From the IMG/VR virus record IMGVR_UViG_3300007516_004456, positions 1-60,976 of that record: 60,976 nt of DNA, one strand, 5' to 3'. Position numbers and translations under genes: made by a program. Positions 28,562 through 46,247 of this stretch are shown piece by piece; position 1 is the first letter of the stretch; every line of letters starts with the position of its first letter. The notes under the pieces were generated by a model. That model made no database searches and had not been told where the DNA came from. It saw only the letters and a list, made by a program, of their open reading frames with translations. This stretch comes from a virus (lineage: Duplodnaviria; Caudoviricetes).

Positions 28562-29416
28562 ATGACTCAAGTGAAACTAGCGCAGATTTTTGAAGTAGAT
28601 GGTTATTTTGAGCCTACTAAGGTATCTCTCTATCTTAAACGAGCAGGATATAATTCTGCTAGCTATTTCGATTTGTCGGATGATCCATCTATTGATTCAA
28701 CTAATTTTTCTAGCATATCACAAGGTAATGGTAGCGTTTTAATTCTTGAAGATATCTATAGTGGATGGACAGGAAACGGTTATTTGTCTTACCAGAGTAT
28801 TGCTGGGTCTGGCACAGATGCTATAGTGAGATATCCGATTAGGGCGTCGTCTGCCGGAATATACGACTTATGGTTACGGTACAGATCGTCTGCTGGATCG
28901 TTTTCTGCGGATATCTATATCGATGGAAATTTCGTTCAAACGATAACAGAGGTTCCTCCTTCTACTGATTGGGAATGGATTCAGGGAAGTTTTGTTGTAC
29001 CGGACAGTGAAACGCATACGCTTGGAATAGTTTTGAAGGAATTAAATACCTCTTTAGACAAGATATACATTGCTGCCAATTCAACCGATCCAAGTAATGA
29101 GTATGGCGGACCAGCGTTGACTGCGAGTCCATTTATAACGGCTCATCTTCAGCTATACACTTTAACGAACGAAGTTGAGCCTAACAGTCCGTTATTGATT
29201 TATGACTATTCTACAACACTTAGCGATATAGTTGCTGACGGTTGGTATAATTTTGCTCTTACTATAATAGATGGCTCCTCTTATGATTTTGACTCTTCGT
29301 ATGCAATAGTTTTTTCTACTAGCGGAGGAGGAAGTAAAAATTATTTAATTTGGGAATTAGTAGATAACGATGAATATTTTGCAACTCCTTCTGCAATAAA
29401 ATTTGAAAATGACTGA
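28562..29416 (+). CDS. Putative virion protein with an inserted carbohydrate-binding-module-like jelly roll
   Basis: AAGGAG SD at 28551-28556 favours the ATG at 28562. Host domain LAQIF..VSLYLKRAG...GWYNF..YAIVFS with inserted GWTGNGYL..YDLWLRYRS..WEW..HTLGI..LDKIYI (CBM6/35-like). Confidence 0.65.
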   Translation: MTQVKLAQIFEVDGYFEPTKVSLYLKRAGYNSASYFDLSDDPSIDSTNFSSISQGNGSVLILEDIYSGWTGNGYLSYQSIAGSGTDAIVRYPIRASSAGIYDLWLRYRSSAGSFSADIYIDGNFVQTITEVPPSTDWEWIQGSFVVPDSETHTLGIVLKELNTSLDKIYIAANSTDPSNEYGGPALTASPFITAHLQLYTLTNEVEPNSPLLIYDYSTTLSDIVADGWYNFALTIIDGSSYDFDSSYAIVFSTSGGGSKNYLIWELVDNDEYFATPSAIKFEND

Positions 29417-32400
29417 TATTAATAATAAAGACTATTATGGCGTTCAAGATGGTTCTTCGTCACTATCCGAAGATCAGTGGCATATCAACTACACTCAACG
29501 ACATGCATTTCGTATTTATAGCGATTTTGATTCTGTAGACGAAGATAACCGTAGAATCCTAACAGAAGCAGCAGACCCGCAGACTAATGTTGTTGACGAA
29601 TTCACATCTGGGGCATCTGATAAAGTTTTTGTTCAAACTAAAATTGTTAATGATAACGCAGGCGGAGAAAATATAGAGTTAAATTTAGATGATCGTATCT
29701 TGACTATTTTGATGGATCAAAGCGGGAGTATGACCTGGAACGATAATGAGGGGTTGCGGCATGATGTTGCCGAGCGAGTCGTTTATCGTCTTTCTTCTAC
29801 TTATCCTGGAGATTTGAAGTATAATTTGATCCAGTTTAACGGGAAACCAATCAACACAACAATTTTTGCCGTTAAGGAAAATGACAAGATAGACGTTAAT
29901 AATGTGCAGAGTTTGGCAACTCGGTTTTTCCGAGATGAAGAATCTCGTTTTGCTGGCGCTAGAGTTGTCCGTAGAGAAGGAACTTATCCTACGTCTCCTT
30001 TAGATGGTGCTGTTGTTTCAGAGGGATTTCTCTCTAAGTCTTTTGATGACGGATTAACAGAAGGAACGGAGTATTTCTATAAAGTATTCACGTTTGACAA
30101 GAATGGCACATTTAGTAACGGAGTCCCTGTCTCTGGTGTTCCGAGAAACAGAATTATTCCTCGTGGTGTTTCTCAGTTTGATGCAACGGTGCTTACTGGT
30201 ACTGGGGTATCTATAGATGACAATGTAATTGGAGCTTGGCATTTTGATGAAGGATCAGGTACTATATCTTTTGACTTTACAAACAACTCTAATAATTTGA
30301 TTAGTTTGGAAACAGAGCCAATTTGGTACAATCCTGAAGATGTTCCAATCGGCGTGTCTGGGGCAAGATATAACGGTAGTACTTCTGGATATGTGACGAA
30401 CGGTGGATCGTCTAATCTGGCGTTAAGTAGCGGTAATGATATGACTATCATGTTTTGGATTTACCCTTTCACTGCAACTGTAAATGAAGCTGTAATAGAA
30501 AGAACAGCATCGGTAGATGGAACAACAGACGTTAATTATTTTGTAGGAAGAACTCCTACAGGACAAGTTATCGTTGGTGTGGAGTCTGATCCTAGTTTAT
30601 TTATAAGTACTGCGACTCCTTTAGCAGTTAATGCATGGCATCATGTTACTGTTACTTTTACGGAAACGGCAGTACCGAATGAATGGAGTATTAGCTTATA
30701 TATTGATGGTTCTTTTCTTGAGTCAGGGACACAAACACTTTCATCCGCTCCTATTGATGATGATATTGCAATGGATTTATCTATTGGTCATCACTATGCA
30801 ACTGGTAGTGCGGCGCTTGGGTCTGTTGGTAATTTCTTTGGAAGGATTACTGAAGTTAGTATTCATAATGTTATTCGTAGCGCTGTATATATCGAGACAG
30901 CGGCGGAAGTTTTTGTTCCAACTTCTATTTTCGGGGCAGATCAAGAGCATATTACCAGACAAGATCAAGATAATTCGGATCGTTTGTTTGTTCTTAGATA
31001 TGAGGTTCCTAATGATTTTAATTACTCAGGTGGTGAGGTTAGAATTATTCGTAAGACACAAAAATATCCTTCTCACGAAAATGACGGAGATATAGTTGTT
31101 GCTGAAACCGCCACAGTGGGAGAACATTTTATAACCGATTCATTTCCGGTTGTGTTCGGAGAGACTTATTTTTACCGGATATTTTCTAAGAACTTTATTG
31201 GCAATTATAGTTATCTAACTGATTCTCCCTTAGCGAAAATAAAAATACCTGAAGCATCTGATTATCTTATTAGTACGCTTGACGATCTATCTCCTGATTT
31301 ATTAACGGTGAGTGGGTTGTCCACAACTCCAGGTAATCGTAAAATTTGGATAGAGTGGCTTAATCCAACGTTAGAAGATCGTTTTGCTCTAGTTAAAGTA
31401 TATTATGCTGATGATGGTTTCCCTGTTATTGAAGACGGAGAAGTTAGTAGTGGAGAATTGATTTTTAGTGGGACTCTTAATGAAGAGAGTTATGTACATC
31501 GCAATATAAATAATGCTGAAGGAGCATTTTATACTGTTGTTGTCACAGACCGTTTTGGGCGGATATCTAATACTGCCAATGTTAGCGAAATTCCATCTAA
31601 TAGCGTAGATGAATCTTCTATACCGTTATTAGATGTAGAAAATGTTCATTATGAAGTTGCAAATAATCAGGCTCTTACAATAAAATGGGATAATCCTATT
31701 GAATTTACGGCAGATATTGAAGGATTCTTCGATGATACTATTTTAGTGTATGCTGCTTTGACGGATGAATTTGGAGAATCCATTTCCGATGATACGAATA
31801 TAACAATGCGTGTGACTTCTATTTTGGGGACTTCGACACAGGCGGATGATGTTTTTGGAACGACGAGACCAGTAAAGATCGAAGTTAATGATACATATAC
31901 GTTTGCTGTTGCTAATCCGTCAAATGGAATTATCAAAGGCACTTTGAAGATGAATGGAGATATCAATGTTCTTTCTCAGATGGAACTTGTTGATTTTGAA
32001 ATTCAAGTATTTGCATTTGTTCCAGATACAACTAGTGAATTATTAAAAAACGGAAAATACTCAAAAAATCTGTTTGAGTTTTTATCTAAATCTGTAACTA
32101 TAAGACTGAGAAATCCTTGGTTTGTGAAATTGACAAATCGAGATGAAAAAATAATATCTCATCTTTGCCGAGTTCAGTCTGATATTTTTGCATTTACAAC
32201 TTTTGTCGATGACGATATCAAAATAGAAAAAAAGATATTTGATGGGGCTTACATCAGAGGAACAAGTCCATTTTATGCGAGAGTAGAGGTTAAGTGGAAA
32301 GACCTTCCATTAAACAGTGCATCTACTGTTTCTGCTCGTATTTATGATGCGACTATGAATTTATGTGATGATTTGAAGAAAAACAAACCCAGTAGACTAG

Positions 32401-35400
32401 GCTTAAGCTCTACTGTTGTTACCCCTCAACGTAGTTTTCCTATTCAAAGAGGAACAATAGACGTTCTTGATTCGAAAGGAGAGCCAACGGGATCAACTAG
32501 AGAGATTTCTTTTGTTGATATTCCTATATCTCCTCCAAACCAGCCACAAGCAGCGTATTTGATAGTGCAGTCTAGATATGGTGGCTACGTTTCAACTCAA
32601 GAGATGTATTTGGTATTTCAAAATATTTTACAGATAGAATTGGATGCTGAGGCTCCTGTTGGCGATGGAGTTGATATATCTGAGCAACGCGCTAGTATTT
32701 ATATTATTAATCCTGATTTCCCAGAGGATATCACAAAAAGGACTACCGTTCCTGATCTAACAACTGTTCGATGGCGGTTAGTTGTATCCGATTTTGGGCG
32801 TAATGACATCCCGTTCTATTCAACAGATAATGTTCCTGCCACCAATGGAGTATTTTCCTATGCTCGTGGCGGAAGCTCTCGTAACATTTTTGTCGGTCCA
32901 ACTCGTGCTATTATACATATAATAGCAACGCCAGCCGGGCCAGTTCTATCAGGAGAGAAGTATAAAATTTCATCTACTATTGTTTATGACGGATTGACTG
33001 CAACTGATGAGGCGTTACTTGAAGTGTTGCCGCCGGGACATAAAAACAGGTTTGGTTCTCGTTTTTTAATGGAGTTTCCTAAGTATAAAAATGAATTATG
33101 GTCGGACGGAGAAGATTACGAGAAACTAATTATTACTCATGACGCTAATAGTTCGATTACAAAATATTCTGGCTGTTTTCGTAGCTGTGCTTTGAGCTTT
33201 GGTAATGATGTTATTCCATTAGTTGCCAATCAAATTGTTGGGATATTTTTTCCTGAAGGATGGGAAGCTATTTGGGGCGATGTTACTGAAGTTGTTGATC
33301 CCTATACGGGAAAAACTACATTACAAATAGGACCGGACGCAGAAATATACCCTGCTGTAAATGGTACTGGGTCAGCTCAGGTTTCGATTATGGAAGATCA
33401 GGATAGTACTCCTGTTTATTTTCGGGTTAATAAATATTACCCTCCAGTGCAAGTTGTTCTGTCTGCTCAGGATTTGATTTCTGCTACTTTTTTAAATCCT
33501 TGTGAGTGTTTGGGTATTTTAGGAGACAAACTGCAACCTTATGAAGAATCTATTTCTGGGGCATCAACGATTTTAATTGACGAATCTACCTATAGTATTT
33601 ATGGAGGTGGAAGGATTGCATCCGGTGTGCCTCCAACAATTCTTGTCCCCAAAGAACCTCTCAATGTTAAAATTGTTGATAGGCGAGTAAATGGGGTTCC
33701 GTCAAATACAGTCGTATTTGACGGGGAGTCTGTTAATCAACTAATAGTTGAGGTTAGTTTTGCTGGTAATCCGGTACCAGACGGTACTCCTCTTTCTGTT
33801 TTTACGACAGATTCAAATGGTTTTTTTGTTATACCAGAAGATAAGGTTATTTATACGGAAACCAGAATCGAAGAGCTTATTGATCCAAATAATGCTCGTA
33901 GTTATGCAACTATTTCTTTAAAGCCTATTGTTCCGGTTGAGGAATTTACGGAGACAATTGTAGTTACTAGTAACTACAATAAAATTGGTGATGTTGAAAG
34001 GTTAATGGCTGACTGTTTGACGATAAGCTATAGCCCCGATGATCCAAGCGATGAGATACAAGATATTTTCAGTGGTCAATTAGATAGGTATGATATCGAT
34101 AGCGATTCTTGGGTTAATCTTGATAGTATGCAGAATCCAAGAGGCGATGTTATTTTTGAAGCAGTTAACGGTAAGATATATGCCATCGGCGGATTATCTA
34201 GATCTACAGTTAGCTCTATTAATGAAGAATATGATCCTCTCACCGGAGATTGGTCGGCTAAAGAAATTATGCCTACATCTCGCTTCTCTGCTGTGTCTGT
34301 CGTCTTTGACAGTAAGATATATGTTATTGGTGGCATTGAAATAGATAATGATAGTAGTGATCTAAATGTATCTAGGGCTTTGGAGAGGTACGATCCTGTA
34401 ACAGATGAATGGGATGTTTTGACAAATATGCCATCGATTGATGTTGGAGAGGTTGATGAATTTACTTATGGAGTTGCTTTTGGAGTTGCTGAGTACGCAA
34501 ATGTTGGGGGCAACGATAGGATATATGTTTTGTGCGGAGTCCGAGAAATTGACTCTAATGGGAGACCGTCTCAATATAATGATCGTGTTCTATATTATGA
34601 TATAGGAACCGATACATGGTTCTATTCTAGTGTTTTAAGCGATGAGGATTTGACATCATATCAGAGAATTGCGCCGCAGGGATTTGTTCGTAGCTCTGAC
34701 AGTAATCTATACGTTGTTGGAGGATTGTTTTCTCCTGTTGATAAACAGCCAGATTCAACTATGGCTCGCCAGCAGTCTATTTTACTGAAAGACGCATTCA
34801 GTATTAATGTTACAACTCTTGCATTGACTGTCTCTGATGGTGAATTTTATGATTTACCTGAACCTCGTTTCCGAGCTGCAACAGTAAAATTCAGTGACGA
34901 TGTATATTTCGTTGGCGGAGGAAATGACAGATCGCTATTTCGGCGAACATTTGAAAAAATAGATACTTCATCCGATCCAATGGATAAGTCCGTTTTGACT
35001 TCTATTCCTCATGGAAGATCATCCGTTGGTGTCGCTGTAGATACAGATGATTATGGGGATCACATTTATATAGTAGGAGGATATCAAAGTGGTCGTAGTG
35101 CAGGATTTTTACAAATAGGGGTAACTTCTTTATCTAGCTCTGATTCATTGGCTGATAGTTTACTTGGAGATGGAAATTGGTTTCGTCTTGACGGTAAAGC
35201 AACGGCTTCTGTTCTACTTAACTTAAAAGATCAATACGGAGACCCACCTGATAGCGATGTGACGGTTGTTGCTCGCGGCTATTTAGTTTTGTTGGATGAC
35301 AAAGGAAAAGCTATTAATGGATTACCGGGATCGAAATTTATAGATGGAAACGAAAAATATAAAACGGCAGCTGAAAAACTTCGCAATGATACGTTGATTT

Positions 35401-38327
35401 ATCCCGTATTATTTGCCCAGAACGAAATAGTTGTTAGTGGTGGCAGTGATATTGTAACGTTACTTTCTCGTTCTGATGATTTGCTTGCATCTCTTAAGGA
35501 TATCGCTGATGTTCTTGGGTTAAGTTCGCAGGATATTGGTATAAATATAAGTGATAAAGTAGAGCATGGATTACTAATAAAAAGTGGAGTTGTTCGTCGT
35601 CCTTACGATATTTTTGTGCAGTTAACCGTTGTAGATGATACTTATTTTGGTCAAACCGTAAATAATATTCCAGATATATCGGGAGGAGCCGGAGGAACAT
35701 TAGATGATGAACAAAATTCAAGAGGAACAGACCTTTCAATTATTCCGGAAATAGGAGACGGAATAAGATGTGTTAAGGTTTATGGAACAAATACATGGAA
35801 AGGATATTCTAGAGGAGACGATATATCCAGATCGGGCACCTTAACAAAAGCTTTAACCGCTTTAGAAGATGGAATTTCGGGATTTCTATTTGATCTTGTT
35901 CCTCCGGCTATAGGACAAGTTAGTAGCCCTGTATTTAATTCTTATGTGGATATAGATTGGGTACCACAGGTTGATAATATTATAGATGATAATTCTACGT
36001 CTGCCGCAGATGTTATTGAGCAGATAGATATTTTGCGCAATTCGATTCCATTTGGAGCTTCAGCTTTATTTGATGCGATGGTTAATGCGTCCGATCTGTT
36101 GGTTGATGAATCTTTAGATAACATCTATAAACACATATATATTTATACAGATAATGAGTCCAACATGTCGGCAGTGACAGCAGATGAAGCTCTAGAAGCG
36201 ATTCAGTCTATTGACGGTGAACGAAAAGTTTCTCTTGTTGTAGGCAACTATTCTATAGTATCTCCTGTTACTCTTTCTGCTAAAGCAAATAGAAGTGATA
36301 CGGAATCACTCGATTATATCGCTAGCCAGACAGGCGGTCAAACAATTACAGTGCTTTCTGCGGAATTTGAAGATGATATAGTCAATATTATGATTGGTCG
36401 AGTTTCAGGCTCGATGGGATTCGGTTCAGCTGATTTTGTGATTGACTTGGGGCAATCTTCAGTACTTGATACTATTCGTTCTTATTTCGATTTACCAACA
36501 AATACAAATTCTAATTGGTCAGTTCAATTTAGCGAAGATGGTTATAATTTTGTCAATGGAACGGATCAGCTGAAACCAGAAGTAGAATTGGATGTTTCGG
36601 ATATAACAGCTCGTTATTTGAAATTTCATATTGAATTGCTAACTGGATTTAGTAATTTTACGGATGAAGTTTACGAGGTAGTGCCTACCGCTTCATCTCC
36701 ATCTCTAACACATATCACCATATCCTATGGTGAGCCAAAAGATACTGAGCTGTTTTTTAATACGGAGACGGCATTAACGGTTCCGCAGCAAGTTGTTGTG
36801 TCAGTAAATTCAAACAATTTGACAACCAATATTATTCAGTCTGGAGTTTCTCAAACCAATTCTCATCAATGGCAAGACTTTTTTAGTGGGTCCAAGCGAA
36901 TTATGGGCAAAGACGGTAAAATGCTATTGCCTATTCGTGTATCTAATAACGAACCCATAGTTGGTCCTGAACCTCTAGTCAAAGTAGATAGACTTACATA
37001 TAGAGTAGCTCAGGGTAAATGGGAGCCTGGTGCTATTATTAAGATTTTAGATAGCAATAATAATATTATTCTCGATAGTTCGTATCAATTGTTTCCCCGT
37101 AAAGGATTAATTGTTTTTAGTGAACCTCCAAGTGGCAGCATGACCGCTCAGATTGAATTTGGAAATACTTTGCGTGTTGGAGTGAAATTTTTGAATATGA
37201 ATCCTAACCAGTCTATTGAAATAGATGGGATAGGGTATATGTACAATACCAATGTAAATCTATTGCCTCCAGCGGAGAAAATAGCGCCAATTGCTCAAAA
37301 TCTGATTATCACGCCTTCAGAACTTCACCTGTTTGACAAAATCACAGCTAGCTATGAATTTATTGACGCCAATAATGACGAAGAAGATACTGATGAGACA
37401 AAGATTAAATGGTACATCAACAATGTATATATTAGTTATTTAGATGGTCTGTTAATCTGGAATGATATAGATAATCGATCTGATCTTCTTTATACTAGAG
37501 CTTTTTCGTTTGATCCAGATGCTTTAGATGAGAACGAAACGGTTTTATTGACAGCTCGCCGTCTCGGTCAATCGATTTTGAAAGCAGGAGATCAATTGTA
37601 TTTTACGGTAGAGCCAAGTGACGGTCAACTGTTTGGTGATGTGGTTAAATCAGAAGTTATGACGGTTTATGAAGATAATCCGTTAATAGATCAAATTGTT
37701 ATTAGAGGGCTTGATCGTAATTCTAAATTAAAAAACACTATTACCGCAGCAGATTCAGCCGTTTTGCAATTTAATATAGTTGCTGATACTGGCTCTAATA
37801 ATTCAGTTGTAATTTGGTATGTTAACGATGAAGTTTTCAAGAATGGAACAATTAATGAAGATGGGATGAATAAGATTACGTCTGGAGAAGAAATTGGTGG
37901 CGTAATAGCTTTGAAAATGAACAATGAGATTCGAGTTGAAGTTACTCCTCAAACCGATGGAGCGATTGGAGAGACAGTATCTAGTGCTTCTGTTTTAATT
38001 GGTAATGCTAAACCAAAAGTTTTAATAGCAGTGATAAGCCCTTCTGTTCCATCCGCTTCTCAGAATTTGTCTTTGGTATATCAGTTCGAAGACGCTGACA
38101 TTCAGATATCTTTAGATCTCAACCAAGATAATCTTTCTGTAGTGAAATGGTATAAGTCTGTGCTTAGTTCTTCATCAGGATTTTTGGAAATTGAAAGTCT
38201 TAGAGGAAAAACATCTGTGCCTTCGTCATCAACTAGTCGAGGGGAGTTTTGGAAAGCAGAAGTGACACCGTATGACGGAATTGATTTTAATGATCCAGTT
38301 TCAAGTAATGTTGTACTGATAAGGTAA
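29403..38327 (+). CDS. Giant multidomain putative virion/adhesin protein (2974 aa; ATG at 29409 likely): split vWA, FN3-like repeats, LamG, Ig-like, Kelch propeller, discoidin (F5/8C)-like and three C-terminal Ig-like repeats
   Basis: ILMDQSGSM (29706-29732) and FGASALFDAM..IYIYTDN..IASQTGG (~36000-36350). RREGTYP..DG..YFYKVF repeats. LamG GAWHFDEGSG..NAWHHVTVTF..FFGRITEVSIHN. Kelch KIYAIGG, KIYVIGG, LYVVGG, VYFVGG, IYIVGG (~34075-35090). FVIDLG..QFSEDG..TARYLKF. KWYINN..GDQLYFTVEPSDG repeats. Confidence 0.8.
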   Translation: MKMTDINNKDYYGVQDGSSSLSEDQWHINYTQRHAFRIYSDFDSVDEDNRRILTEAADPQTNVVDEFTSGASDKVFVQTKIVNDNAGGENIELNLDDRILTILMDQSGSMTWNDNEGLRHDVAERVVYRLSSTYPGDLKYNLIQFNGKPINTTIFAVKENDKIDVNNVQSLATRFFRDEESRFAGARVVRREGTYPTSPLDGAVVSEGFLSKSFDDGLTEGTEYFYKVFTFDKNGTFSNGVPVSGVPRNRIIPRGVSQFDATVLTGTGVSIDDNVIGAWHFDEGSGTISFDFTNNSNNLISLETEPIWYNPEDVPIGVSGARYNGSTSGYVTNGGSSNLALSSGNDMTIMFWIYPFTATVNEAVIERTASVDGTTDVNYFVGRTPTGQVIVGVESDPSLFISTATPLAVNAWHHVTVTFTETAVPNEWSISLYIDGSFLESGTQTLSSAPIDDDIAMDLSIGHHYATGSAALGSVGNFFGRITEVSIHNVIRSAVYIETAAEVFVPTSIFGADQEHITRQDQDNSDRLFVLRYEVPNDFNYSGGEVRIIRKTQKYPSHENDGDIVVAETATVGEHFITDSFPVVFGETYFYRIFSKNFIGNYSYLTDSPLAKIKIPEASDYLISTLDDLSPDLLTVSGLSTTPGNRKIWIEWLNPTLEDRFALVKVYYADDGFPVIEDGEVSSGELIFSGTLNEESYVHRNINNAEGAFYTVVVTDRFGRISNTANVSEIPSNSVDESSIPLLDVENVHYEVANNQALTIKWDNPIEFTADIEGFFDDTILVYAALTDEFGESISDDTNITMRVTSILGTSTQADDVFGTTRPVKIEVNDTYTFAVANPSNGIIKGTLKMNGDINVLSQMELVDFEIQVFAFVPDTTSELLKNGKYSKNLFEFLSKSVTIRLRNPWFVKLTNRDEKIISHLCRVQSDIFAFTTFVDDDIKIEKKIFDGAYIRGTSPFYARVEVKWKDLPLNSASTVSARIYDATMNLCDDLKKNKPSRLGLSSTVVTPQRSFPIQRGTIDVLDSKGEPTGSTREISFVDIPISPPNQPQAAYLIVQSRYGGYVSTQEMYLVFQNILQIELDAEAPVGDGVDISEQRASIYIINPDFPEDITKRTTVPDLTTVRWRLVVSDFGRNDIPFYSTDNVPATNGVFSYARGGSSRNIFVGPTRAIIHIIATPAGPVLSGEKYKISSTIVYDGLTATDEALLEVLPPGHKNRFGSRFLMEFPKYKNELWSDGEDYEKLIITHDANSSITKYSGCFRSCALSFGNDVIPLVANQIVGIFFPEGWEAIWGDVTEVVDPYTGKTTLQIGPDAEIYPAVNGTGSAQVSIMEDQDSTPVYFRVNKYYPPVQVVLSAQDLISATFLNPCECLGILGDKLQPYEESISGASTILIDESTYSIYGGGRIASGVPPTILVPKEPLNVKIVDRRVNGVPSNTVVFDGESVNQLIVEVSFAGNPVPDGTPLSVFTTDSNGFFVIPEDKVIYTETRIEELIDPNNARSYATISLKPIVPVEEFTETIVVTSNYNKIGDVERLMADCLTISYSPDDPSDEIQDIFSGQLDRYDIDSDSWVNLDSMQNPRGDVIFEAVNGKIYAIGGLSRSTVSSINEEYDPLTGDWSAKEIMPTSRFSAVSVVFDSKIYVIGGIEIDNDSSDLNVSRALERYDPVTDEWDVLTNMPSIDVGEVDEFTYGVAFGVAEYANVGGNDRIYVLCGVREIDSNGRPSQYNDRVLYYDIGTDTWFYSSVLSDEDLTSYQRIAPQGFVRSSDSNLYVVGGLFSPVDKQPDSTMARQQSILLKDAFSINVTTLALTVSDGEFYDLPEPRFRAATVKFSDDVYFVGGGNDRSLFRRTFEKIDTSSDPMDKSVLTSIPHGRSSVGVAVDTDDYGDHIYIVGGYQSGRSAGFLQIGVTSLSSSDSLADSLLGDGNWFRLDGKATASVLLNLKDQYGDPPDSDVTVVARGYLVLLDDKGKAINGLPGSKFIDGNEKYKTAAEKLRNDTLIYPVLFAQNEIVVSGGSDIVTLLSRSDDLLASLKDIADVLGLSSQDIGINISDKVEHGLLIKSGVVRRPYDIFVQLTVVDDTYFGQTVNNIPDISGGAGGTLDDEQNSRGTDLSIIPEIGDGIRCVKVYGTNTWKGYSRGDDISRSGTLTKALTALEDGISGFLFDLVPPAIGQVSSPVFNSYVDIDWVPQVDNIIDDNSTSAADVIEQIDILRNSIPFGASALFDAMVNASDLLVDESLDNIYKHIYIYTDNESNMSAVTADEALEAIQSIDGERKVSLVVGNYSIVSPVTLSAKANRSDTESLDYIASQTGGQTITVLSAEFEDDIVNIMIGRVSGSMGFGSADFVIDLGQSSVLDTIRSYFDLPTNTNSNWSVQFSEDGYNFVNGTDQLKPEVELDVSDITARYLKFHIELLTGFSNFTDEVYEVVPTASSPSLTHITISYGEPKDTELFFNTETALTVPQQVVVSVNSNNLTTNIIQSGVSQTNSHQWQDFFSGSKRIMGKDGKMLLPIRVSNNEPIVGPEPLVKVDRLTYRVAQGKWEPGAIIKILDSNNNIILDSSYQLFPRKGLIVFSEPPSGSMTAQIEFGNTLRVGVKFLNMNPNQSIEIDGIGYMYNTNVNLLPPAEKIAPIAQNLIITPSELHLFDKITASYEFIDANNDEEDTDETKIKWYINNVYISYLDGLLIWNDIDNRSDLLYTRAFSFDPDALDENETVLLTARRLGQSILKAGDQLYFTVEPSDGQLFGDVVKSEVMTVYEDNPLIDQIVIRGLDRNSKLKNTITAADSAVLQFNIVADTGSNNSVVIWYVNDEVFKNGTINEDGMNKITSGEEIGGVIALKMNNEIRVEVTPQTDGAIGETVSSASVLIGNAKPKVLIAVISPSVPSASQNLSLVYQFEDADIQISLDLNQDNLSVVKWYKSVLSSSSGFLEIESLRGKTSVPSSSTSRGEFWKAEVTPYDGIDFNDPVSSNVVLIR

Positions 38328-38429: not shown

Positions 38430-39203
38430 ATGCAGCAACTATATCCAAGGTCCAACGCTACCTATAGAGTCTTTTTATCAGTTTTGACATATAACGGTCT
38501 TGCTGTCACTCAAAAATTCGTTAAGAAATTTTACAAGAATACTGATTCTTCTTTGGCTGTTCTCGCTATTACTGACAATGGCTCCACAGATGGCACCGGT
38601 GAGTTCCTGGACGATTTGCACGCTGAACATGATAATGTGTTGGTTACTAAGAACGACGAGAATAAGGGAGTAATAGGTGGCAGGAATCAAGGATTTGATT
38701 TATTCCTGGATTCCGATTCTGAATTATTATGTTTTCTAGATAACGATCAATTTGTTAGAGAAGGATGGCTTGAACAACATATTGCTGTTCTTGAGTCAGG
38801 ATATGGATTGGTGAGTGTTGAAGCGTGGGAGATGAGTGAGTCATTTATGCCGAGACGAAAAAATGTTAGTTTGAAACAGACATTCACTTATGTCGGTTGT
38901 GGAGGTATGTTGATTCGTAGAGAGGTTGTTGAGAAGGTTGGAAAGTTTGATGAGCAGTTTAATCCTAGTTGGTTTGAAGATCCGGACTACAATATACGAA
39001 CAAAAGATGCTGGGTTCCAGATAGGATGGAACATTTGTGCAAGGATAGACCATTTGCCACATCAAACATTGGGTAAAAGTCCAAATAAAAGGGAAATATT
39101 TTTACGAAGCTATAGCAGATTTAAGGAAAAGTATAAAAAAAGAAGACTTCCTCGTTTAAAGCAAAGATATATAGACGTATTTGACTGCGTTAAGTCTCAT
39201 TAA
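38430..39203 (+). CDS. Glycosyltransferase family 2 (GT-A fold)
   Basis: VLTYN, TDNGSTDGT, GGRNQG, FLDND (DxD), GCGGMLIRREV, FDEQF, EDPDY. Confidence 0.9.
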   Translation: MQQLYPRSNATYRVFLSVLTYNGLAVTQKFVKKFYKNTDSSLAVLAITDNGSTDGTGEFLDDLHAEHDNVLVTKNDENKGVIGGRNQGFDLFLDSDSELLCFLDNDQFVREGWLEQHIAVLESGYGLVSVEAWEMSESFMPRRKNVSLKQTFTYVGCGGMLIRREVVEKVGKFDEQFNPSWFEDPDYNIRTKDAGFQIGWNICARIDHLPHQTLGKSPNKREIFLRSYSRFKEKYKKRRLPRLKQRYIDVFDCVKSH

Positions 39204-39257
39204 AATGTCAAAAAATCGAATATTTTATCACAATGTAGACTTTAATGTTAAATATTT

Positions 39258-40367
39258 ATGAAACTCGCAATAGCATCTAATTTTATGTATTCGCATGTTG
39301 GTGGGTCGGAGATTGTTCTTCAAGCTATATCTGAGCGTTTGACACAATCTTATGATTATGATGTGACTTGTTTTGGTAAGAATGTCCGTAAAAAAAATGT
39401 CCACAATAATGTAAAATATGAAGGCATTCCTACTCGCTATGAGGATTTTGTGTCCGGTATCAACAAAGGTGGATTTGATCACTTATTTGTGTACAGTGAT
39501 TATTTTATATTTTGGTCTAAAATGGTCGTGCAGCCAGATGCCATTAAGTGCTCTAAGTCTATAGCGCTTGTCGGGATGAATCAAATGATAGGTAATCCCA
39601 ACTTATCTAAATTTTTTCGACGGACGCATGATGGATTTACTGTAATAACACATTCTAATAATTATTTGGACCACAAAGAATGTACTAGATTAAAAATACC
39701 AGTTAAGGTTATTCCTAATGGTGTTGATCTGAAAGAGTTTGATGACTGTGAAATTGATTTTCGAAAGAGATTTGATATTCCAGATAAACCGATATTGCTT
39801 TGTGTTTCTAACTTTTTTCCGGGTAAGGGGCAAGATCATTTATCTAATATTCTACAGTATGTAACTTCTGATTTTTATCTTGTTTTGATTTCAACGACTG
39901 TAAGTATTCCTATGGCTAAAATGCTAGCCACTCAGGTAAGACAGCAGCTTGCACAAGGGCGTATAAAGCATAAGTTTTTGCAGGACATAGGGAGAGAATC
40001 CACTGTTGCGGCATTCAAGGCAGCAGATATTTTTGTTTTTCCTTCTTTGAAAGAAGTTGCCCCATTGGTTCTAATGGAGTCTATGGCGGCTAATACTCCT
40101 TGGATATCTATGCCTGTTGGTAATGCGACAGACCTTGCCGGTGGTGTTGTGGTTCAACATCCTCGTTACGATGTTCATCGTAATATAAAATATTCAGATC
40201 AAGCACATAAAATGTTTGGCGATGAAATAGAGTCATTGTTGAATGATAGAGATAGAAGAATGCGATTAGGTTCTAATGGTAGGGTTTGTATTGAGGAGAA
40301 TCATAATTGGTACGATATCTGCAAGCAGTACCACGAGATATTTAGTCATGGCTCAACCGTTAGTTAG
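39258..40367 (+). CDS. Glycosyltransferase family 4 (GT-B fold)
   Basis: VGGSE, IPNGVD, CVSNFFPGKG, ADIFVFPSLKEVAPLVLMESMA (EX7E). Confidence 0.9.
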   Translation: MKLAIASNFMYSHVGGSEIVLQAISERLTQSYDYDVTCFGKNVRKKNVHNNVKYEGIPTRYEDFVSGINKGGFDHLFVYSDYFIFWSKMVVQPDAIKCSKSIALVGMNQMIGNPNLSKFFRRTHDGFTVITHSNNYLDHKECTRLKIPVKVIPNGVDLKEFDDCEIDFRKRFDIPDKPILLCVSNFFPGKGQDHLSNILQYVTSDFYLVLISTTVSIPMAKMLATQVRQQLAQGRIKHKFLQDIGRESTVAAFKAADIFVFPSLKEVAPLVLMESMAANTPWISMPVGNATDLAGGVVVQHPRYDVHRNIKYSDQAHKMFGDEIESLLNDRDRRMRLGSNGRVCIEENHNWYDICKQYHEIFSHGSTVS

Positions 40368-41133
40368 TGTAGTTACTACCGTTTACAATTGTGAGAAGTT
40401 TATTAAAGAGTCAATAGATTCTATAATAAGTCAATCGTTTCGGGATTTTGAGTTAATTCTTGTTAATGACGGCTCGACCGATGGAACTCGTGATATCTGT
40501 ATCTCGTATACTTCAGATAAGCGAGTTATTTTCATTGATAATGATAATAATAAAAAAATTCCAACAAGAAGAAATCAGGGTATTTCTTATGCAAAAGGTC
40601 GTTATATTGCTATTCATGATGGGGACGATGTTAGCTTGCCCTTTCGTCTTGAAAAACAGGTCAATTTGCTAGAGGGGAGTAATAGTGTTTTTTGTGTTGG
40701 ATCACATGCTATACAGATTGATCCAGAAGGGAACGAAACACACATAATGGATTATCCGCCAGAAACTCATGAGCAGATTGTGCATGATACAGTTGATAAA
40801 ACGATTAATCCGATGATTGACCCTACAACAATGTTTAATCGTAGAATTTTTAATTTTTTAGGTGGATATACCCTAGATCGTCGTTTTTGGTTGGTGCCGG
40901 ATTTTAATTTATGGATTAGAGCGTTAAAACTTGGTTTTAAATTCGCTAATATCCAAGAGCCGTTAATTAAATATCGTCACAATCCTTCCGGTAACACTTT
41001 AAAGTACAAAAGAGAGATGATTTTTCAGTTTGCTATTTTATGGAGGAAATTCGCATCCGATCATCTCCATATTATCAGAAATAAAATGGAAAGGAAAAAA
41101 CAGGGAACGGAAGGTCAAAAACTTGATTTATAG
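40348..41133 (+). CDS. Glycosyltransferase family 2
   Basis: Likely start MAQPLVSVVTTVYN (ATG 40348 rather than 40276); LVNDGSTDGT, RNQGI..AKGRYIAIHDGDD, DFNLWIR, PLIKYRH. Confidence 0.9.
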   Translation: MAQPLVSVVTTVYNCEKFIKESIDSIISQSFRDFELILVNDGSTDGTRDICISYTSDKRVIFIDNDNNKKIPTRRNQGISYAKGRYIAIHDGDDVSLPFRLEKQVNLLEGSNSVFCVGSHAIQIDPEGNETHIMDYPPETHEQIVHDTVDKTINPMIDPTTMFNRRIFNFLGGYTLDRRFWLVPDFNLWIRALKLGFKFANIQEPLIKYRHNPSGNTLKYKREMIFQFAILWRKFASDHLHIIRNKMERKKQGTEGQKLDL

Positions 41134-43286: not shown

Positions 43287-46247
43287 ATGCCTGAACAAAA
43301 TTCTATTCAGCTGCGAATAACGCATAATTCGACTTTCGTAAACGGTCGTCTCGATAAACAGGTTTATCAGTCTCTTCGCAAAGCGATTGGATATACACCA
43401 GAAACTGCACGTTGGATGCAGTTTAAGCATCCAAAGTGGGATGGTCATATTTCTTGTGTTTGCTATAGTAGAAAGTATTGTAAATGTTTTATTAAAAAAG
43501 ATGGTACTCATTTCCCTACTGGATTATTATGGAAAGCGAGAGAGATTTTTGATAACTTTAATATTTCTTATTCTATTGTTGATAGTCGTTCTACGGTAAA
43601 AAAGACAATCTCTTTTTCGATGTCGGATACGTTCGAGTTAAGAGATTACCAGCAAAAGGTTGTCGATATCGCAGTTAAAAAAGAGCGAGGTATTATTCGC
43701 ATGGCGACCGGCAGTGGAAAAACCGCTTGTTCTGCTCATATTATTGCTAAGCTTGGTGTGTCTCCTTTTATATTTTATGTACCTTCAAAAGATTTATTAT
43801 ATCAAGCTAAGAATGAGTTTGAATCTTTTTTAAGACAAAATGGATTACCAATTGAGGTAGGAATTATAGGAGGTGGGCATAAAAATATTAAACCAATCTC
43901 TGTAATGACTATTCAAACGGCGGTTAGAGTTTTAGGAACAAAATATAAAAAAGTTGACGAAGAAGATCAAGACGATGATACGGACATTGATGATATCAAA
44001 CAGGATATCAGAGATTTGATTCGTTCTTCTAAGGGCATAATTTGTGACGAAGTACAGCATTGGGCAGCAGATACATGTCAGATTATTGCTGATGCATCTG
44101 AAGAATGTCGTTATCGTTATGGGATTTCTGCAACTCCATGGCGAGATATGAATGACGATATTTTGATTGATGCGTGTTTTGGTAAAATTATTGCGGATAT
44201 TAATGCATCATTTCTGATCGATAGAGGATTTTTGGTGCCTCCTGAGATATTTTTTATTCCTGTAGGAAATATGCGAGGGATTAAATTAACTAGTTATCCA
44301 GAAGTTTATCAGACAGCAATTGCGGAAAATGATCTTCGAAATTATTGGATTGCCAATCTTGCTCAGGTAATGAAACAGAACGGGAAAACAGTTCTTGTTC
44401 TTTGTCGTCTTATTAATCATGGTAATCTATTAGAGTCTTTGATTCCTGGTAGCGTATTTTTGCATGGAAGTGTTTCTGGGAAGAAAAGGCAAGAGCATTT
44501 GCAGTTGATGAGAGAAAAAAAGGCTCCAGTAACAATCGCAACCTCTTTGCCGTTCTGCGAAGTCATTCCTGTTAGGATTAAAGGGTTTGTTCGTTTGATA
44601 CAAATTGGGCATCTGGTAGAAAACCTGCATACAATAGTGTCAGAAGGTTACGTGGAAGCATTATGTTCTTTGGACGGTAAATCTGCTATCTGGCAAAAAA
44701 TTACAGGATTACATAAACATAAGCGGATGAATACTGTAAAAAGAGTACTAACAGATTATAATGAAGAAGTTTTGGTCACTGAAAATCATTCGCTTGTTGA
44801 TTACAACAAGGATCAAGTTAAACCAACGGTAGGAGGTTTAGCTAGTTGTCCTGTTTTTAATGAGTCTATAAGTTCGTCTACACTAATTGATTCAATTGAT
44901 CTTGTTGATTTGTTATCTTCGTTAGATGATCGGTCTATAGAGGTCGAATTACTTGGCCTTACTCAACCTATAATGAGAAAGTTGCGTACGTGGAATAAAT
45001 ACTGGACTGGTAATCATGTATGCAAAAATTCACGTCTTGCTGCGGATAGATACATTAAAGACAAAGGGAATGACTATAAAATAGCAATTAAACAGCTTAT
45101 AGATCATTTTTCTTACGAAAAAGGAAAAATGCGAGCTAAATTAGTTGATCTTAAAAATTGCAAAACAATATTTGATTTTTTTGAAGCAAGGATTTTTATA
45201 AGGCGTAGTAGAAAAGGGTTTTTTCTGCCAATACGGTTGCCGGTGACACGTGATTTGGCAATTTTATCGGGGTTAATGTGTTCTGAAGGACATATAAATG
45301 AAGCGTCATGCAAGACGTGTCGATCAAGATTCGATTGGATTTTCACTGGGCTATTACATAATGTTGACTCATCTGAGGGAAAGCATGATATTGATAAGAA
45401 AAACATACGTCAGATATTTAAATCTGCTTTTTATGGTTCTATTGGTAATTTTCATTTAATTGAAAACGATAAACAGATCAAGTTTAACAGTAAGTTGATG
45501 TATTTATTATTTCAGTCAATGGGACATATTAATTTAGACAGAGAGAAAAGAGTCCCTGATTATGTTTTTAATTCTAGTAGAGAAATTCAAGAGGCTTATT
45601 TATGGGGAGTGTATTTGGGAGATGGGAGCAAAAGATTAGATTATAGACCAGGCAAAAAAAAGTCTGATATTTTTAGTGCGTTGATTATATCTAGTTCTAG
45701 TCGAGAGATGGTTAGCGGTATAGTAATGTTATTGAAAATGATGGGTAAAAAATATTATATTACATATCAGCACGCTCATGGTCGCACTAAAAAAAGATAT
45801 CAAATATGTATTGGAGATTCTATAGACAAGTTACATCCAACTCGTTTGTTAGATAAAATAGGCAGTTCTACATTTGAACGAATACAAAGCGTTGTTGAAG
45901 ATACAGATATTTTAGATGATTATGTTTATGATATCACCGTAGAAAATTCCCATAATTTTGTTGCTGGAGTTGGATGTGTTTTGTGTCATAACTCGATTTT
46001 TGATGAAGGAATTGACTGCAAACCACTTGATACGCTTATACTTGCCGGTTCAGGGAAAAGTGCGACTCGTGCTTTGCAGCGTATTGGTAGATGTTTACGT
46101 CCGTATCCCGGAAAACAGTCTGCGACTATTATTGACTTTGAAGATCGTTGCAAATTTATGTTAAAGCACAGTAATCGTCGTAAAAAGATTTATCAGACAG
46201 AGCCTCGTTTTGCGATTAAATATATGGAAATAGATCAACCTAAATGA
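43287..46247 (+). CDS. Superfamily 2 (UvsW/XPB-like) DNA helicase containing an intein (~503 aa after splicing)
   Basis: Q motif LRDYQ, motif I ATGSGKT, motif II DEVQH, motif III SAT, motif V IAT|SIFDEGID (interrupted), motif VI QRIGR. Confidence 0.9.
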   Translation: MPEQNSIQLRITHNSTFVNGRLDKQVYQSLRKAIGYTPETARWMQFKHPKWDGHISCVCYSRKYCKCFIKKDGTHFPTGLLWKAREIFDNFNISYSIVDSRSTVKKTISFSMSDTFELRDYQQKVVDIAVKKERGIIRMATGSGKTACSAHIIAKLGVSPFIFYVPSKDLLYQAKNEFESFLRQNGLPIEVGIIGGGHKNIKPISVMTIQTAVRVLGTKYKKVDEEDQDDDTDIDDIKQDIRDLIRSSKGIICDEVQHWAADTCQIIADASEECRYRYGISATPWRDMNDDILIDACFGKIIADINASFLIDRGFLVPPEIFFIPVGNMRGIKLTSYPEVYQTAIAENDLRNYWIANLAQVMKQNGKTVLVLCRLINHGNLLESLIPGSVFLHGSVSGKKRQEHLQLMREKKAPVTIATSLPFCEVIPVRIKGFVRLIQIGHLVENLHTIVSEGYVEALCSLDGKSAIWQKITGLHKHKRMNTVKRVLTDYNEEVLVTENHSLVDYNKDQVKPTVGGLASCPVFNESISSSTLIDSIDLVDLLSSLDDRSIEVELLGLTQPIMRKLRTWNKYWTGNHVCKNSRLAADRYIKDKGNDYKIAIKQLIDHFSYEKGKMRAKLVDLKNCKTIFDFFEARIFIRRSRKGFFLPIRLPVTRDLAILSGLMCSEGHINEASCKTCRSRFDWIFTGLLHNVDSSEGKHDIDKKNIRQIFKSAFYGSIGNFHLIENDKQIKFNSKLMYLLFQSMGHINLDREKRVPDYVFNSSREIQEAYLWGVYLGDGSKRLDYRPGKKKSDIFSALIISSSSREMVSGIVMLLKMMGKKYYITYQHAHGRTKKRYQICIGDSIDKLHPTRLLDKIGSSTFERIQSVVEDTDILDDYVYDITVENSHNFVAGVGCVLCHNSIFDEGIDCKPLDTLILAGSGKSATRALQRIGRCLRPYPGKQSATIIDFEDRCKFMLKHSNRRKKIYQTEPRFAIKYMEIDQPK
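44544..45992 (+). mobile_element. Intein with LAGLIDADG homing endonuclease (483 aa) in helicase motif V
   Basis: Starts with Ser (SLPFCEVIPV); block B VTENHSL; LAGLIDADG-like LSGLMCSEG and YLWGVYLGDG; block F/G YVYDITVENSHNFVAG..CHN followed by +1 Ser. Confidence 0.92.

What the first reader, a model, noticed from the sequence alone, without database searches (positions are those of the whole stretch)
29691..36395. vWA domain split by a ~2,050-aa (~6.1 kb) insertion in the 2974-aa protein
Seen: the first vWA half (RILTILMDQSGSMTWND..LRHDVAERVV..KYNLIQFNG, ~29691-29843) carries the MIDAS DxSxS. The complementary half (ADVIEQIDILRNSIPFGASALFDAMVNA..HIYIYTDNESN..VSLVVG..LDYIASQTGGQTITV, ~36003-36395) appears only about 2,050 residues later. 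FN3-like repeats, LamG, Ig-like domains and a full Kelch propeller lie between. Established: vWA domains tolerate arms inserted near the MIDAS face (e.g. pilus tip adhesins such as RrgA), but those arms are far smaller. Inference: the protein forms a giant loop closed by reassembly of a metal-dependent vWA, possibly a metal- or force-sensitive clasp. Ser replaces the usual MIDAS Thr (GAS vs GxT).
Basis: partly seen in the sequence, partly recalled or inferred. Interest (0 to 1): 0.75.

Follow-up and report, generated by a model that had tools for sequence, protein, structure and literature searches.

The report
Two-piece vWA domain in giant phage protein
A 2,974-residue protein of a roughly half-megabase phage carries a metal-binding vWA domain in two pieces about 2,000 residues apart, and related phages put the two pieces on separate genes, so the domain probably forms by the pieces docking together.

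Summary
ORF 29403-38327 (+) has a vWA N-piece (residues 96-165) and a C-piece (2185-2345). They match complementary parts of Pfam VWA: profile 2-57 and 64-159, each below the cut-off. A profile of the C-piece reaches canonical vWA proteins library-wide (E 1.4e-8).

All five MIDAS positions are near-invariant across the family. Ser replaces the usual Thr in 146 of 154 C-pieces.

Given as two chains, the pieces are predicted to dock: ipSAE 0.84, best control 0.00. Strand 99-104 pairs in parallel with 2242-2248, as in a vWA sheet. This pass may reflect likeness to solved vWA structures.

The split is universal in the family. Seventy-five representatives carry both pieces, 1463-2872 residues apart, and none has them contiguous. 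Two lineages encode the pieces on adjacent separate genes, cut at two different places. The constant is therefore the pairing of the pieces, not a closed loop.

The "clasp" idea is untested, and pairing in cis versus between copies is unresolved. The role is unproven; a virion adhesin is my inference. I rate it a new variant of a known kind.

The parts
29403..38327 (+). Gene for the 2974-aa protein (P0001; TTG at 29403, more likely ATG at 29409 giving 2972 aa)
29403..29687 (+). N-terminal leader, residues 1-95, no family match; AF2 pLDDT below 50
29688..29897 (+). vWA N-piece, residues 96-165 (strand A, helix 1, strands B and C by position in the Pfam profile)
   Evidence: Pfam VWA_2 2-59/107 and VWA 2-57/174; docks on the C-piece; Atlas nearest clusters are vWA at 0.88, a lead only
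29715..29729 (+). MIDAS motif D105-x-S107-x-S109
   Evidence: D 75/76, S 74/76, S 74/76 of N-pieces
29955..30152 (+). First inserted domain, FN3-like beta-sandwich, residues 185-250
   Evidence: AF2 pLDDT 66-89; tblastn to a Bacillus phage tail protein, E 7e-5
30384..30884 (+). Laminin_G_3 (concanavalin-like lectin) domain, residues 328-494
   Evidence: Pfam E 7.6e-12
34074..34727 (+). Kelch beta-propeller, Pfam range 1558-1775; the propeller region runs on to about residue 1907
   Evidence: Kelch_1 E 2.9e-20, Beta-prop_ATRN-LZTR1 1558-1775; type I gene A ends at the equivalent of residue 1905-1907
35124..35180 (+). Ser-rich linker, residues 1908-1926, at the place where type I relatives have a stop codon and a new start
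35181..35954 (+). Beta-rich region, residues 1927-2184, equivalent to the start of gene B in type I relatives; fold unresolved
   Evidence: AF2 low confidence
35955..36437 (+). vWA C-piece, residues 2185-2345 (helix, MIDAS loop, helix, strand D, helix, strand E, helix, strand F, helix)
   Evidence: Pfam VWA 64-159/174, E 0.05; family profile hits canonical vWA proteins at E 1.4e-8 to 1.1e-4; secondary-structure order; Atlas vWA clusters at 0.94
36060..36062 (+). S2220, the MIDAS position normally held by Thr (G-A-S)
   Evidence: S 146, T 5, gap 3 of 154
36150..36152 (+). D2250, MIDAS Asp after strand D (T-D-N-E)
   Evidence: D 151 of 154, the rest gaps
36420..36734 (+). Discoidin-like (F5/8 type C) beta-sandwich directly after the C-piece, about residues 2340-2444
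   Evidence: AF2 pLDDT 75-82; F5_F8_type_C in relatives (4 of 42)
36735..38327 (+). C-terminal tail with repeated W-x-x-N ... P-x-D-G modules; no family match

Best explanation
The protein holds one vWA (MIDAS) domain made from two distant segments. Residues about 96-165 supply strand A with the DxSxS loop, helix 1 and strands B and C. Residues about 2185-2345 supply the remaining helices and strands D-F, with the Ser and Asp that complete the metal site. The two segments co-fold, with strand A lying between strand B and strand D. The metal would therefore be held by side chains from both segments.

The domain acts as a hub that ties two arms together. One arm runs FN3-like, LamG and onward to Kelch. 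The other is the discoidin-like C-terminal arm.

In this window's fused protein the pairing is most simply in cis, which would close a loop of about 2,040 residues. In two related lineages the same pairing must occur between two separate gene products.

Shown here: the complementary profile matches, the conservation, the gene fissions, and a predicted docking.

Inferred: actual co-folding, metal binding, cis pairing, and the role. I take the role to be a virion-surface or tail-fibre adhesin of a phage of about 0.5 Mb, whose free MIDAS face binds an acidic ligand.
For: (1) Complementary Pfam matches: N-piece to VWA profile 2-57, C-piece to 64-159. Four C-piece-only relatives match VWA only from position 60-78 to 137-167.

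(2) The C-piece profile (A3) searched against 1.84 billion representatives hits canonical vWA proteins. P0125 scores E 1.4e-8 in 12 stretches and carries 12 Pfam VWA domains (1175 bits). P0149 scores 2.2e-5 and P0157 1.1e-4.

(3) MIDAS columns: D105 75/76, S107 74/76, S109 74/76, G2218 151/154, S2220 146 S plus 5 T of 154, D2250 151/154.

(4) Complex prediction on residues 88-185 and 2185-2345: ipSAE 0.84, 0.82, 0.84, best of 3 controls 0.00. That mark was reached by 58 of 80 solved complexes and 2 of 110 mismatched pairs. Runs agree in at least 88% of contacts, and partner pLDDT is at least 73. The closest pairs are 99-104 with 2242-2248 in parallel register. All MIDAS residues lie in the interface.

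(5) Confidence in each piece rises only with its true partner. The N-piece has pLDDT 32-36 with unrelated partners and 64-66 with the C-piece. The C-piece has 43 and 74-76. Alone in AF2 the N-piece is below 50 apart from one helix.

(6) Seventy-five representatives of 2236-5031 aa carry both pieces, 1463-2872 residues apart (median 1917). None has them contiguous.

(7) Type I fission: 6 of 18 IMG/VR loci have gene A (1917-2075 aa) and gene B (1002-1052 aa), with a clean stop followed by ATG or GTG. These six form one side of a branch with 99/98 support.

(8) Type II fission, at a different place: 10 metagenome loci have A' (1217-1307 aa) and B' (1421-1541 aa).

(9) Atlas feature search: vWA clusters at 0.94 for the C-piece and 0.88 for the N-piece.
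Against: Each piece is below Pfam's cut-off (16.9 and 14.3 bits against 23.8). PF00092 was not listed for the whole protein.

Profile searches of PDB sequences gave nothing significant. The N-piece's best hit was a dUTPase at E 0.07, with vWA proteins only at E 0.19-0.75. The C-piece had no hit at E up to 1. hhalign against the window's own contiguous vWA protein was weak (E 0.0037 and 0.41).

The AF2 models of each region alone are poor (mean pLDDT 48.3 and 46.1). The Foldseek hits to integrin beta I-like and vWA chains (E 2e-5 and weaker, TM 0.12-0.16) are therefore of doubtful weight.

The complex pass may come from the model's memory of solved vWA folds, and my own alignment was used. No coordinates were returned, so the MIDAS geometry was not inspected.

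Nothing here shows expression, metal binding, virion location, or cis rather than trans pairing. No structural hallmark gene was found near the gene: PHROGs gave no structural hits for the neighbours, and tail sheath and terminase Pfam models found nothing in 5 related genomes.
Confidence: 0.75

Rival explanations
1. The pieces pair between copies rather than within one chain. The N-piece of one molecule completes the C-piece of another. This would give head-to-tail dimers, rings or polymers of the giant protein, for example a fibre or mesh on the virion.
For: Two independent two-gene architectures show that pairing in trans is viable in this family. The docking prediction was itself run on two separate chains.
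Against: Within one chain the local concentration of the partner piece favours cis pairing (general principle, my inference). No repeat, coiled coil or other oligomerisation signal was looked for or seen. No data distinguish the two modes.
Confidence: 0.15
2. The two stretches do not form one domain. They are relics of vWA domains, or unrelated alpha/beta segments, each packing against its local neighbours.
For: Each Pfam match is below the cut-off. PDB sequence searches were negative. No confident 3-D model of the assembled domain was obtained.
Against: The MIDAS positions are near-invariant in both pieces across 76 and 154 sequences of clusters at 50% identity. The profile ranges are complementary, with the same breakpoint in relatives. 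Both pieces always co-occur in full-length proteins (75 of 75 proteins of 2236 aa or more that had an N-piece hit; only 2 proteins of 1800 aa or more lacked it). The docking score is 0.84 against 0.00 for controls. Neither piece folds confidently with its local sequence.
Confidence: 0.06
3. The intervening 2,000 residues are a removable element, an intein-like or otherwise spliced insertion, so that the mature protein has a contiguous vWA domain.
For: The same window holds inteins in three other genes, so protein splicing occurs in this phage.
Against: No Intein_splicing, Hint or LAGLIDADG match was found in P0001 at E up to 1. The insert is made of conserved adhesin-type domains aligned along its whole length in 16 homologues. 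In two-gene relatives the insert is divided between two proteins that keep it.
Confidence: 0.02

Closest known systems
Canonical contiguous vWA / integrin I-type domains with MIDAS (Pfam PF00092, PF13519)
   Same: Same profile, covered in two parts. Same DxSxS ... S/T ... D metal-site pattern. Same order of secondary-structure elements, and the same strand A to strand D pairing in the prediction. The window itself encodes a contiguous example in the 926-aa ORF 8899-11679 (28.3 bits).
   Different: Here the domain is interrupted after the third strand by 1463-2872 residues in every family member examined. In two lineages it is divided between two genes. Ser takes the usual Thr position in 146 of 154.
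Pilus tip adhesins RrgA / GBS104 (vWA D3 domain with two inserted arms)
   Same: An adhesin built of beta-sandwich domains plus a MIDAS-bearing vWA domain that tolerates insertions. Non-contiguous domains that fold back on each other occur there too (PMC7893114, passages read).
   Different: In RrgA the vWA domain is the inserted unit, and D1/D2 are the non-contiguous ones. Its arms are hairpins and short helices, not about 2,000 residues of whole domains (PMC7893114). P0001 has no LPxTG motif and no hydrophobic anchor. No sequence relationship beyond the vWA fold was tested.
Integrin beta-subunit headpiece (beta I-like domain nested in the hybrid domain)
   Same: Top Foldseek matches of the C-piece model are integrin beta chains (E 2.2e-5 and weaker). 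It is also a case of nested domain insertion next to a beta-sandwich. A neighbouring ORF (1216-7470) has FG-GAP repeats like integrin alpha propellers.
   Different: The nesting is the other way round, since in integrins the vWA-like domain is the insert (recalled). The Foldseek query model was of low confidence (mean pLDDT 48.3). No ADMIDAS or SyMBS sites were tested.
Naturally split domains that reassemble, such as split inteins (functional analogy only, recalled)
   Same: Two polypeptides each carry an incomplete fold and would associate by completing it, as inferred for the type I and type II two-gene relatives.
   Different: There is no splicing chemistry and no Hint domain. The association here is inferred, not shown.

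Membership tests
vWA domain (Pfam PF00092 / PF13519) | Sequence-profile match at or above the curated cut-off | tested here: inconclusive
   The N-piece scores 16.9 bits (PF00092) and 22.1-25 bits (PF13519, cut-off 27). The C-piece scores 14.3 bits (cut-off 23.8). Each is below cut-off, as expected for part of a domain. The ranges 2-57 and 64-159 are complementary.
vWA domain (Pfam PF00092 / PF13519) | Homology of the second piece to canonical vWA domains | tested here: met
   The A3 profile hits P0125 (12 Pfam VWA domains, 1175 bits) at E 1.4e-8, P0149 (VWA 34.4 bits) at 2.2e-5, and P0157 (VWA 54.2 bits) at 1.1e-4, library-wide.
vWA domain (Pfam PF00092 / PF13519) | MIDAS residues DxSxS, Thr, Asp | tested here: met
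   D105, S107, S109 and D2250 are conserved in at least 97% of sequences. The Thr position holds Ser in 146 and Thr in 5 of 154. A hydroxyl side chain is kept; metal binding itself was not tested.
vWA domain (Pfam PF00092 / PF13519) | Alpha/beta fold with strand A next to strand D in a parallel sheet | tested here: met
   By prediction only. Residues 99-104 pair with 2242-2248 in parallel register at 0.4-0.7 A expected error, with ipSAE 0.84 against 0.00 for controls. The helix and strand order of the C-piece fits. No coordinates were inspected.
vWA domain (Pfam PF00092 / PF13519) | One contiguous stretch of about 170-200 residues | tested here: not met
   The pieces are about 2,020-2,040 residues apart here and 1463-2872 apart in 75 relatives. 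This departure is the finding.
Sortase-anchored pilus tip adhesins (RrgA/GBS104 type) | C-terminal LPxTG sorting signal and signal peptide | tested here: not met
   No LPxTG anywhere and no hydrophobic 19-residue window. The gene lies in a phage record.
Inteins | Hint / Intein_splicing domain at the borders of the insertion | tested here: not met
   No such Pfam match in P0001 at E up to 1, whereas three other genes of the window do match.
Phage tail fibre / receptor-binding protein | Presence in the virion, or homology to a known fibre or baseplate protein | tested here: inconclusive
   PHROGs matches come only through the Kelch region; one is labelled virion structural protein (E 2e-5). A 55-residue tblastn match falls on an annotated Bacillus phage tail protein. 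Virion presence cannot be tested with these tools.

The most novel reading that the evidence does not exclude
The vWA domain of this family is an obligate two-piece domain whose metal site is built from both pieces. It works as a natural fold-complementation docking module. In fused proteins it closes a loop of about 2,000 residues. In two independently fissioned lineages it joins two giant gene products into one adhesin. This would be the first natural split vWA/MIDAS domain, and among the largest insertions inside a single small domain.
Probability: 0.6. Interest if true: 0.78.

Novelty: new variant of a known kind. Interest (0 to 1): 0.7.

Why it matters
vWA/MIDAS domains are among the best-studied adhesion modules, and they are treated as compact, contiguous units whose ends lie close together (abstract of PMC3919171, seen in the listing).

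This family differs in three ways. The domain is always interrupted by 1,460-2,870 residues of whole domains. It has twice been divided between genes. It keeps every metal-binding residue throughout.

If the pairing is real, three things follow:
- A small Rossmann-like domain can serve as an assembly joint for proteins of thousands of residues.
- It offers a natural, possibly metal-dependent, split-domain pair that could be tested directly by co-expression.
- It gives a handle on how phages of about 0.5 Mb build their very large surface proteins.

The family is also missed by domain annotation, because each piece scores below the Pfam cut-off.

Tried and rejected
PDB sequence-profile searches gave nothing usable for either piece. 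hhalign of each piece against the window's own contiguous vWA protein P0019 gave collinear but weak matches (E 0.0037 and 0.41).

AF2 folds of residues 1925-2525 and 1-330 were poor (mean pLDDT 48.3 and 46.1). I ran Foldseek only on the first and give its integrin and vWA hits little weight.

Single-protein locus searches with P0068 and P0108 found no relatives in IMG/VR. The alignment A7 found only the fused forms there. The single metagenome scan then found type II loci.

Tail sheath (PF04984) and terminase (PF03237) models found nothing in 5 related genomes of 351-494 kb. The gene's module remains unassigned.

Literature:
- Six phrases for a split, discontinuous, interrupted or bipartite VWA gave 0 papers.
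- 'split domain' with 'von Willebrand factor A', 'two polypeptides' and 'complementation' gave 0 papers.
- The listings held nothing on such a domain.
- PMC12619734 has no mention of Kelch, vWA or fibronectin.
- Supplementary files were not consulted, and subscription journals are not in the library.

I considered and rejected an intein reading, an alternative genetic code or readthrough at the gene junctions (TAA, TAG and TGA all occur as stops there and the frames mostly differ), and an assembly artefact (the architecture recurs on many contigs).

The 926-aa ORF's partial VWA match (profile 1-122) looked like a second split. Read by eye, however, its sequence shows a contiguous domain.

Rows dropped: L008 (identical to L005 in the compared stretches) from A2-A5, L018 from A4 and A5, and L015 and L019 (cut at the 5' end) from A2 and A5.
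Full report
WHAT THE WINDOW IS. The window is a whole IMG/VR virus record of 60,976 bases that CheckV rates 12% complete. Of 38 ORFs of at least 100 aa, 35 lie on the + strand. The right half encodes phage-type helicases, a primase, DNA methyltransferases and a translation-factor-like protein. Relatives of the gene of interest lie on records of 461-494 kb with direct terminal repeats, rated 98-100% complete. The source is therefore a phage of about half a megabase. The left 38 kb is a run of very large ORFs (2084, 926, 700, 1923, 1855 and 2974 aa) with FG-GAP, vWA, LamG, Ig-like and FN3 matches. It is flanked by glycosyltransferase genes.

THE OBSERVATION. ORF 29403-38327 (+) is 2974 codons from TTG. 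The database copy starts at the ATG two codons later. Residues 96-165 read DDRILTILMDQSGSMTWND...KYNLIQFNG...TTIFAV. They match Pfam VWA_2 positions 2-59 of 107 and VWA positions 2-57 of 174. Residues 2201-2366 match VWA positions 64-159 of 174 (E 0.05). The two matches are collinear, meet at the same point of the profile, and are each below the curated cut-off. Between them lie an FN3-like sandwich (185-250), Laminin_G_3 (328-494) and a Kelch propeller (from 1558).

IS THE SECOND PIECE REALLY vWA? I built a profile of the C-piece from the window and 17 related loci (A3). I searched it against 1.84 billion cluster representatives. It gave 162 hits at E up to 0.001, of which 150 were listed. 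Most are family members, but canonical vWA proteins also appear:
- P0125 (E 1.4e-8, 12 matched stretches) has 12 Pfam VWA domains scoring 1175 bits.
- P0149 (2.2e-5) and P0157 (1.1e-4) pass the VWA cut-off.

Four family members that hold only the C-piece match Pfam VWA from position 60-78 to 137-167 and never the first third. Five of the ten scanned in that call had no VWA match. A language-model feature search put the C-piece among vWA clusters at 0.94 and the N-piece at 0.88, which is a lead only. PDB sequence searches were negative.

CONSERVATION. Sixteen full-length homologues at 30-42% identity align along the whole protein. I built local HMMs of the two pieces and ran them on all 157 stored proteins. 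Seventy-five proteins (2236-5031 aa, not counting the window's own) carry both pieces. The gap from N-piece end to C-piece start is 1463-2872 residues, median 1917. Seventy-eight proteins carry the C-piece only: 29 under 900 aa, 27 of 900-1300, 20 of 1300-1800, and 2 larger. In none are the pieces contiguous.

The MIDAS columns are near-invariant. D105 is D in 75 of 76, S107 is S in 74 of 76, and S109 is S in 74 of 76. G2218 is G in 151 of 154, and D2250 is D in 151 of 154, with the misses being gaps. S2220 is S in 146 and T in 5 of 154. The Ser-for-Thr replacement is thus a family trait, not a defect of this copy.

DO THE PIECES COME TOGETHER? I gave residues 88-185 and 2185-2345 as two chains, with rows of alignment A1.
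- ipSAE was 0.84, 0.82 and 0.84, with the best of three controls at 0.00.
- That mark was reached by 58 of 80 solved complexes and 2 of 110 mismatched pairs.
- The runs share at least 88% of contacts, and partner pLDDT is at least 73.
- The tightest pairs are 99-104 (ILTILM) with 2242-2248 (the strand before T-D-N-E), in parallel register. This is the strand A to strand D neighbourhood of a vWA sheet.
- Helix 120-127 packs on 2205-2208, and all MIDAS residues are in the interface.
- The N-piece's pLDDT is 64-66 with its partner but 32-36 with unrelated proteins. The C-piece's is 74-76 against 43.

Three cautions apply. My own alignment was used, so the calibration holds only roughly. vWA folds are abundant among solved structures, so the pass may reflect that likeness and does not show that these copies bind. 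No coordinates were returned.

Folded alone by AlphaFold2, the N-piece is below pLDDT 50 apart from one helix, while the adjacent FN3-like domain is confident. The C-piece reaches 50-73 and shows helix, helix, strand, helix, strand, helix, strand, helix in the order expected for the second part of a vWA domain. Neither piece forms a complete domain with its local sequence. Foldseek on the poor C model lists integrin beta I-like and vWA chains first (E 2.2e-5 and weaker, TM 0.12-0.16). I treat this as weak support.

THE NATURAL EXPERIMENT. Of 18 related IMG/VR loci, 10 have one long ORF, 2 were cut at the 5' end of the fetched stretch, and 6 (L009, L011, L012, L014, L016, L017) have two adjacent ORFs. 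In those six:
- Gene A (1917-2075 aa) aligns to residues 1-1907 of the window's protein and carries the N-piece at residues 41-183.
- Gene B (1002-1052 aa) aligns to 1927-2973 and carries the C-piece at 191-375.
- Gene A ends just after the last Kelch blade. Gene B starts with ATG (GTG in L014), from 3 nt of overlap to 11 nt downstream. The frames differ among loci.

In the window, a 19-residue Ser-rich linker (1908-1926) sits at that spot. On a tree of the C-terminal region (17 rows) the six form one side of a branch with 99/98 support. Their internal branches reach 1.25 changes per site, so the state is old and stable.

A second architecture appeared in metagenome loci. In 10 loci (L033-L037, L040, L042-L045) an ORF A' of 1217-1307 aa, stop to stop, carries the N-piece at about residues 198-313. 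It is followed within 0-8 nt of its stop by B' of 1421-1541 aa, cut to 1040 and 1126 aa at the locus end in L043 and L034. B' begins M(S)IWAQIGD, contains the Kelch repeats, and carries the C-piece at about residues 700-950. TAA, TGA and TAG all serve as stops at these junctions, and most frames differ. Recoding or readthrough is therefore unlikely. DxSGS and the G-x-S and D motifs are kept in these pairs.

Of all 39 loci:
- 23 have one ORF with both pieces. Two of these are ORFs of 4421 and 4658 aa that also take in the upstream neighbour.
- 10 are type II pairs.
- 6 are cut, so the N-piece region is out of view.

Many loci come from the same or near-identical contigs, so these are counts of loci, not of independent events.

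READING. The chain between the pieces has been cut at two different places, and in other relatives lengthened. The pieces and their metal ligands persist throughout. What selection keeps is the pair. The simplest account is one vWA domain assembled from two segments, in cis here and in trans in the two-gene relatives. It would serve as the joint between an N-proximal arm (FN3-like, LamG, Kelch) and a C-terminal arm (discoidin-like sandwich and repeats).

The DxSxS loop comes from one piece and the Ser and Asp from the other, so a bound metal would bridge the two. That makes some metal dependence of the joint plausible, but it is untested. From the canonical topology as I recall it, the chain leaves after the antiparallel third strand and returns at the start of the helix that leads up to the second MIDAS loop. 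Both points lie on the face opposite the metal site, where the domain's own termini lie. The abstract of PMC3919171 (listing) states that those termini are close together. The MIDAS face would then stay free for a ligand. This differs from RrgA and GBS104, where short arms flank the MIDAS and the vWA domain is itself the inserted unit (PMC7893114, passages read).

WHAT IS NOT KNOWN. Cis pairing versus pairing between copies is open, as are metal binding, the ligand, expression and location. The adhesin or tail-fibre role rests on four things. The first is domain content. The second is the gene's place in a run of similar giant ORFs beside glycosyltransferases. The third is one PHROG labelled virion structural protein, matched through the Kelch region (E 2e-5). 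The fourth is a short match to an annotated tail protein. The protein has no LPxTG motif and no hydrophobic anchor.

NOVELTY. Searches of the held library for split, discontinuous, interrupted or bipartite VWA phrases returned no paper. Subscription journals and supplements were not covered. I file this as a new variant of a known kind. It has a known fold and metal site, in a discontinuous and sometimes two-chain form. It is conserved across at least 150 clusters at 50% identity.

Noticed in passing
window 8899-11679 (+): A 926-aa ORF with a contiguous N-terminal vWA domain (PF00092, 28.3 bits; DESGS motif). This is a second vWA protein in the same gene run. The Pfam match stops at profile position 122, but by eye the sequence continues as a normal domain.
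   Followed up: partly
window 1216-7470 (+): A 2084-aa ORF with five FG-GAP repeats near its C-terminus (PF14312, E 8.1e-42). This is the repeat of integrin alpha propellers, lying in the same cluster as two vWA proteins.
   Followed up: no
window 43287-46247, 51370-54288, 56345-58285 (+): Three replication or modification genes appear to be interrupted by inteins. These are an SNF2/DEAD-type helicase, a DnaB-like helicase and an N6/N4 DNA methylase. The two helicases match Intein_splicing and LAGLIDADG_3; the methylase matches LAGLIDADG_3 only, between the halves of its methylase domain.
   Followed up: partly
window 7795-8892 and 38430-41133 (+): Four glycosyltransferase genes (GT1 and GT2 families) flank the run of giant ORFs. 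Three of them lie directly downstream of the split-vWA gene, and the same downstream neighbours appear in related loci.
   Followed up: no
window 48306-48818 (+): A 170-aa ORF matching a PHROG labelled translation initiation factor (E 1.4e-27).
   Followed up: no
L046 1037-14299 and L047 563-14536: Single ORFs of 4421 and 4658 aa. The upstream roughly 2,050-aa neighbour of type II loci is fused in frame to the A' and B' parts. The representative library also holds proteins of 4625-5031 aa with the N-piece near residue 2030-2170.
   Followed up: partly
P0103, P0106, P0108, P0112, P0113, P0121, P0138 and P0056, P0058, P0088, P0091: C-piece-only proteins of about 1050-1110 aa with the C-piece at about residue 540-555 or 340-360. 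These hint at further break points beyond the two verified, but their genomic context could not be fetched.
   Followed up: partly
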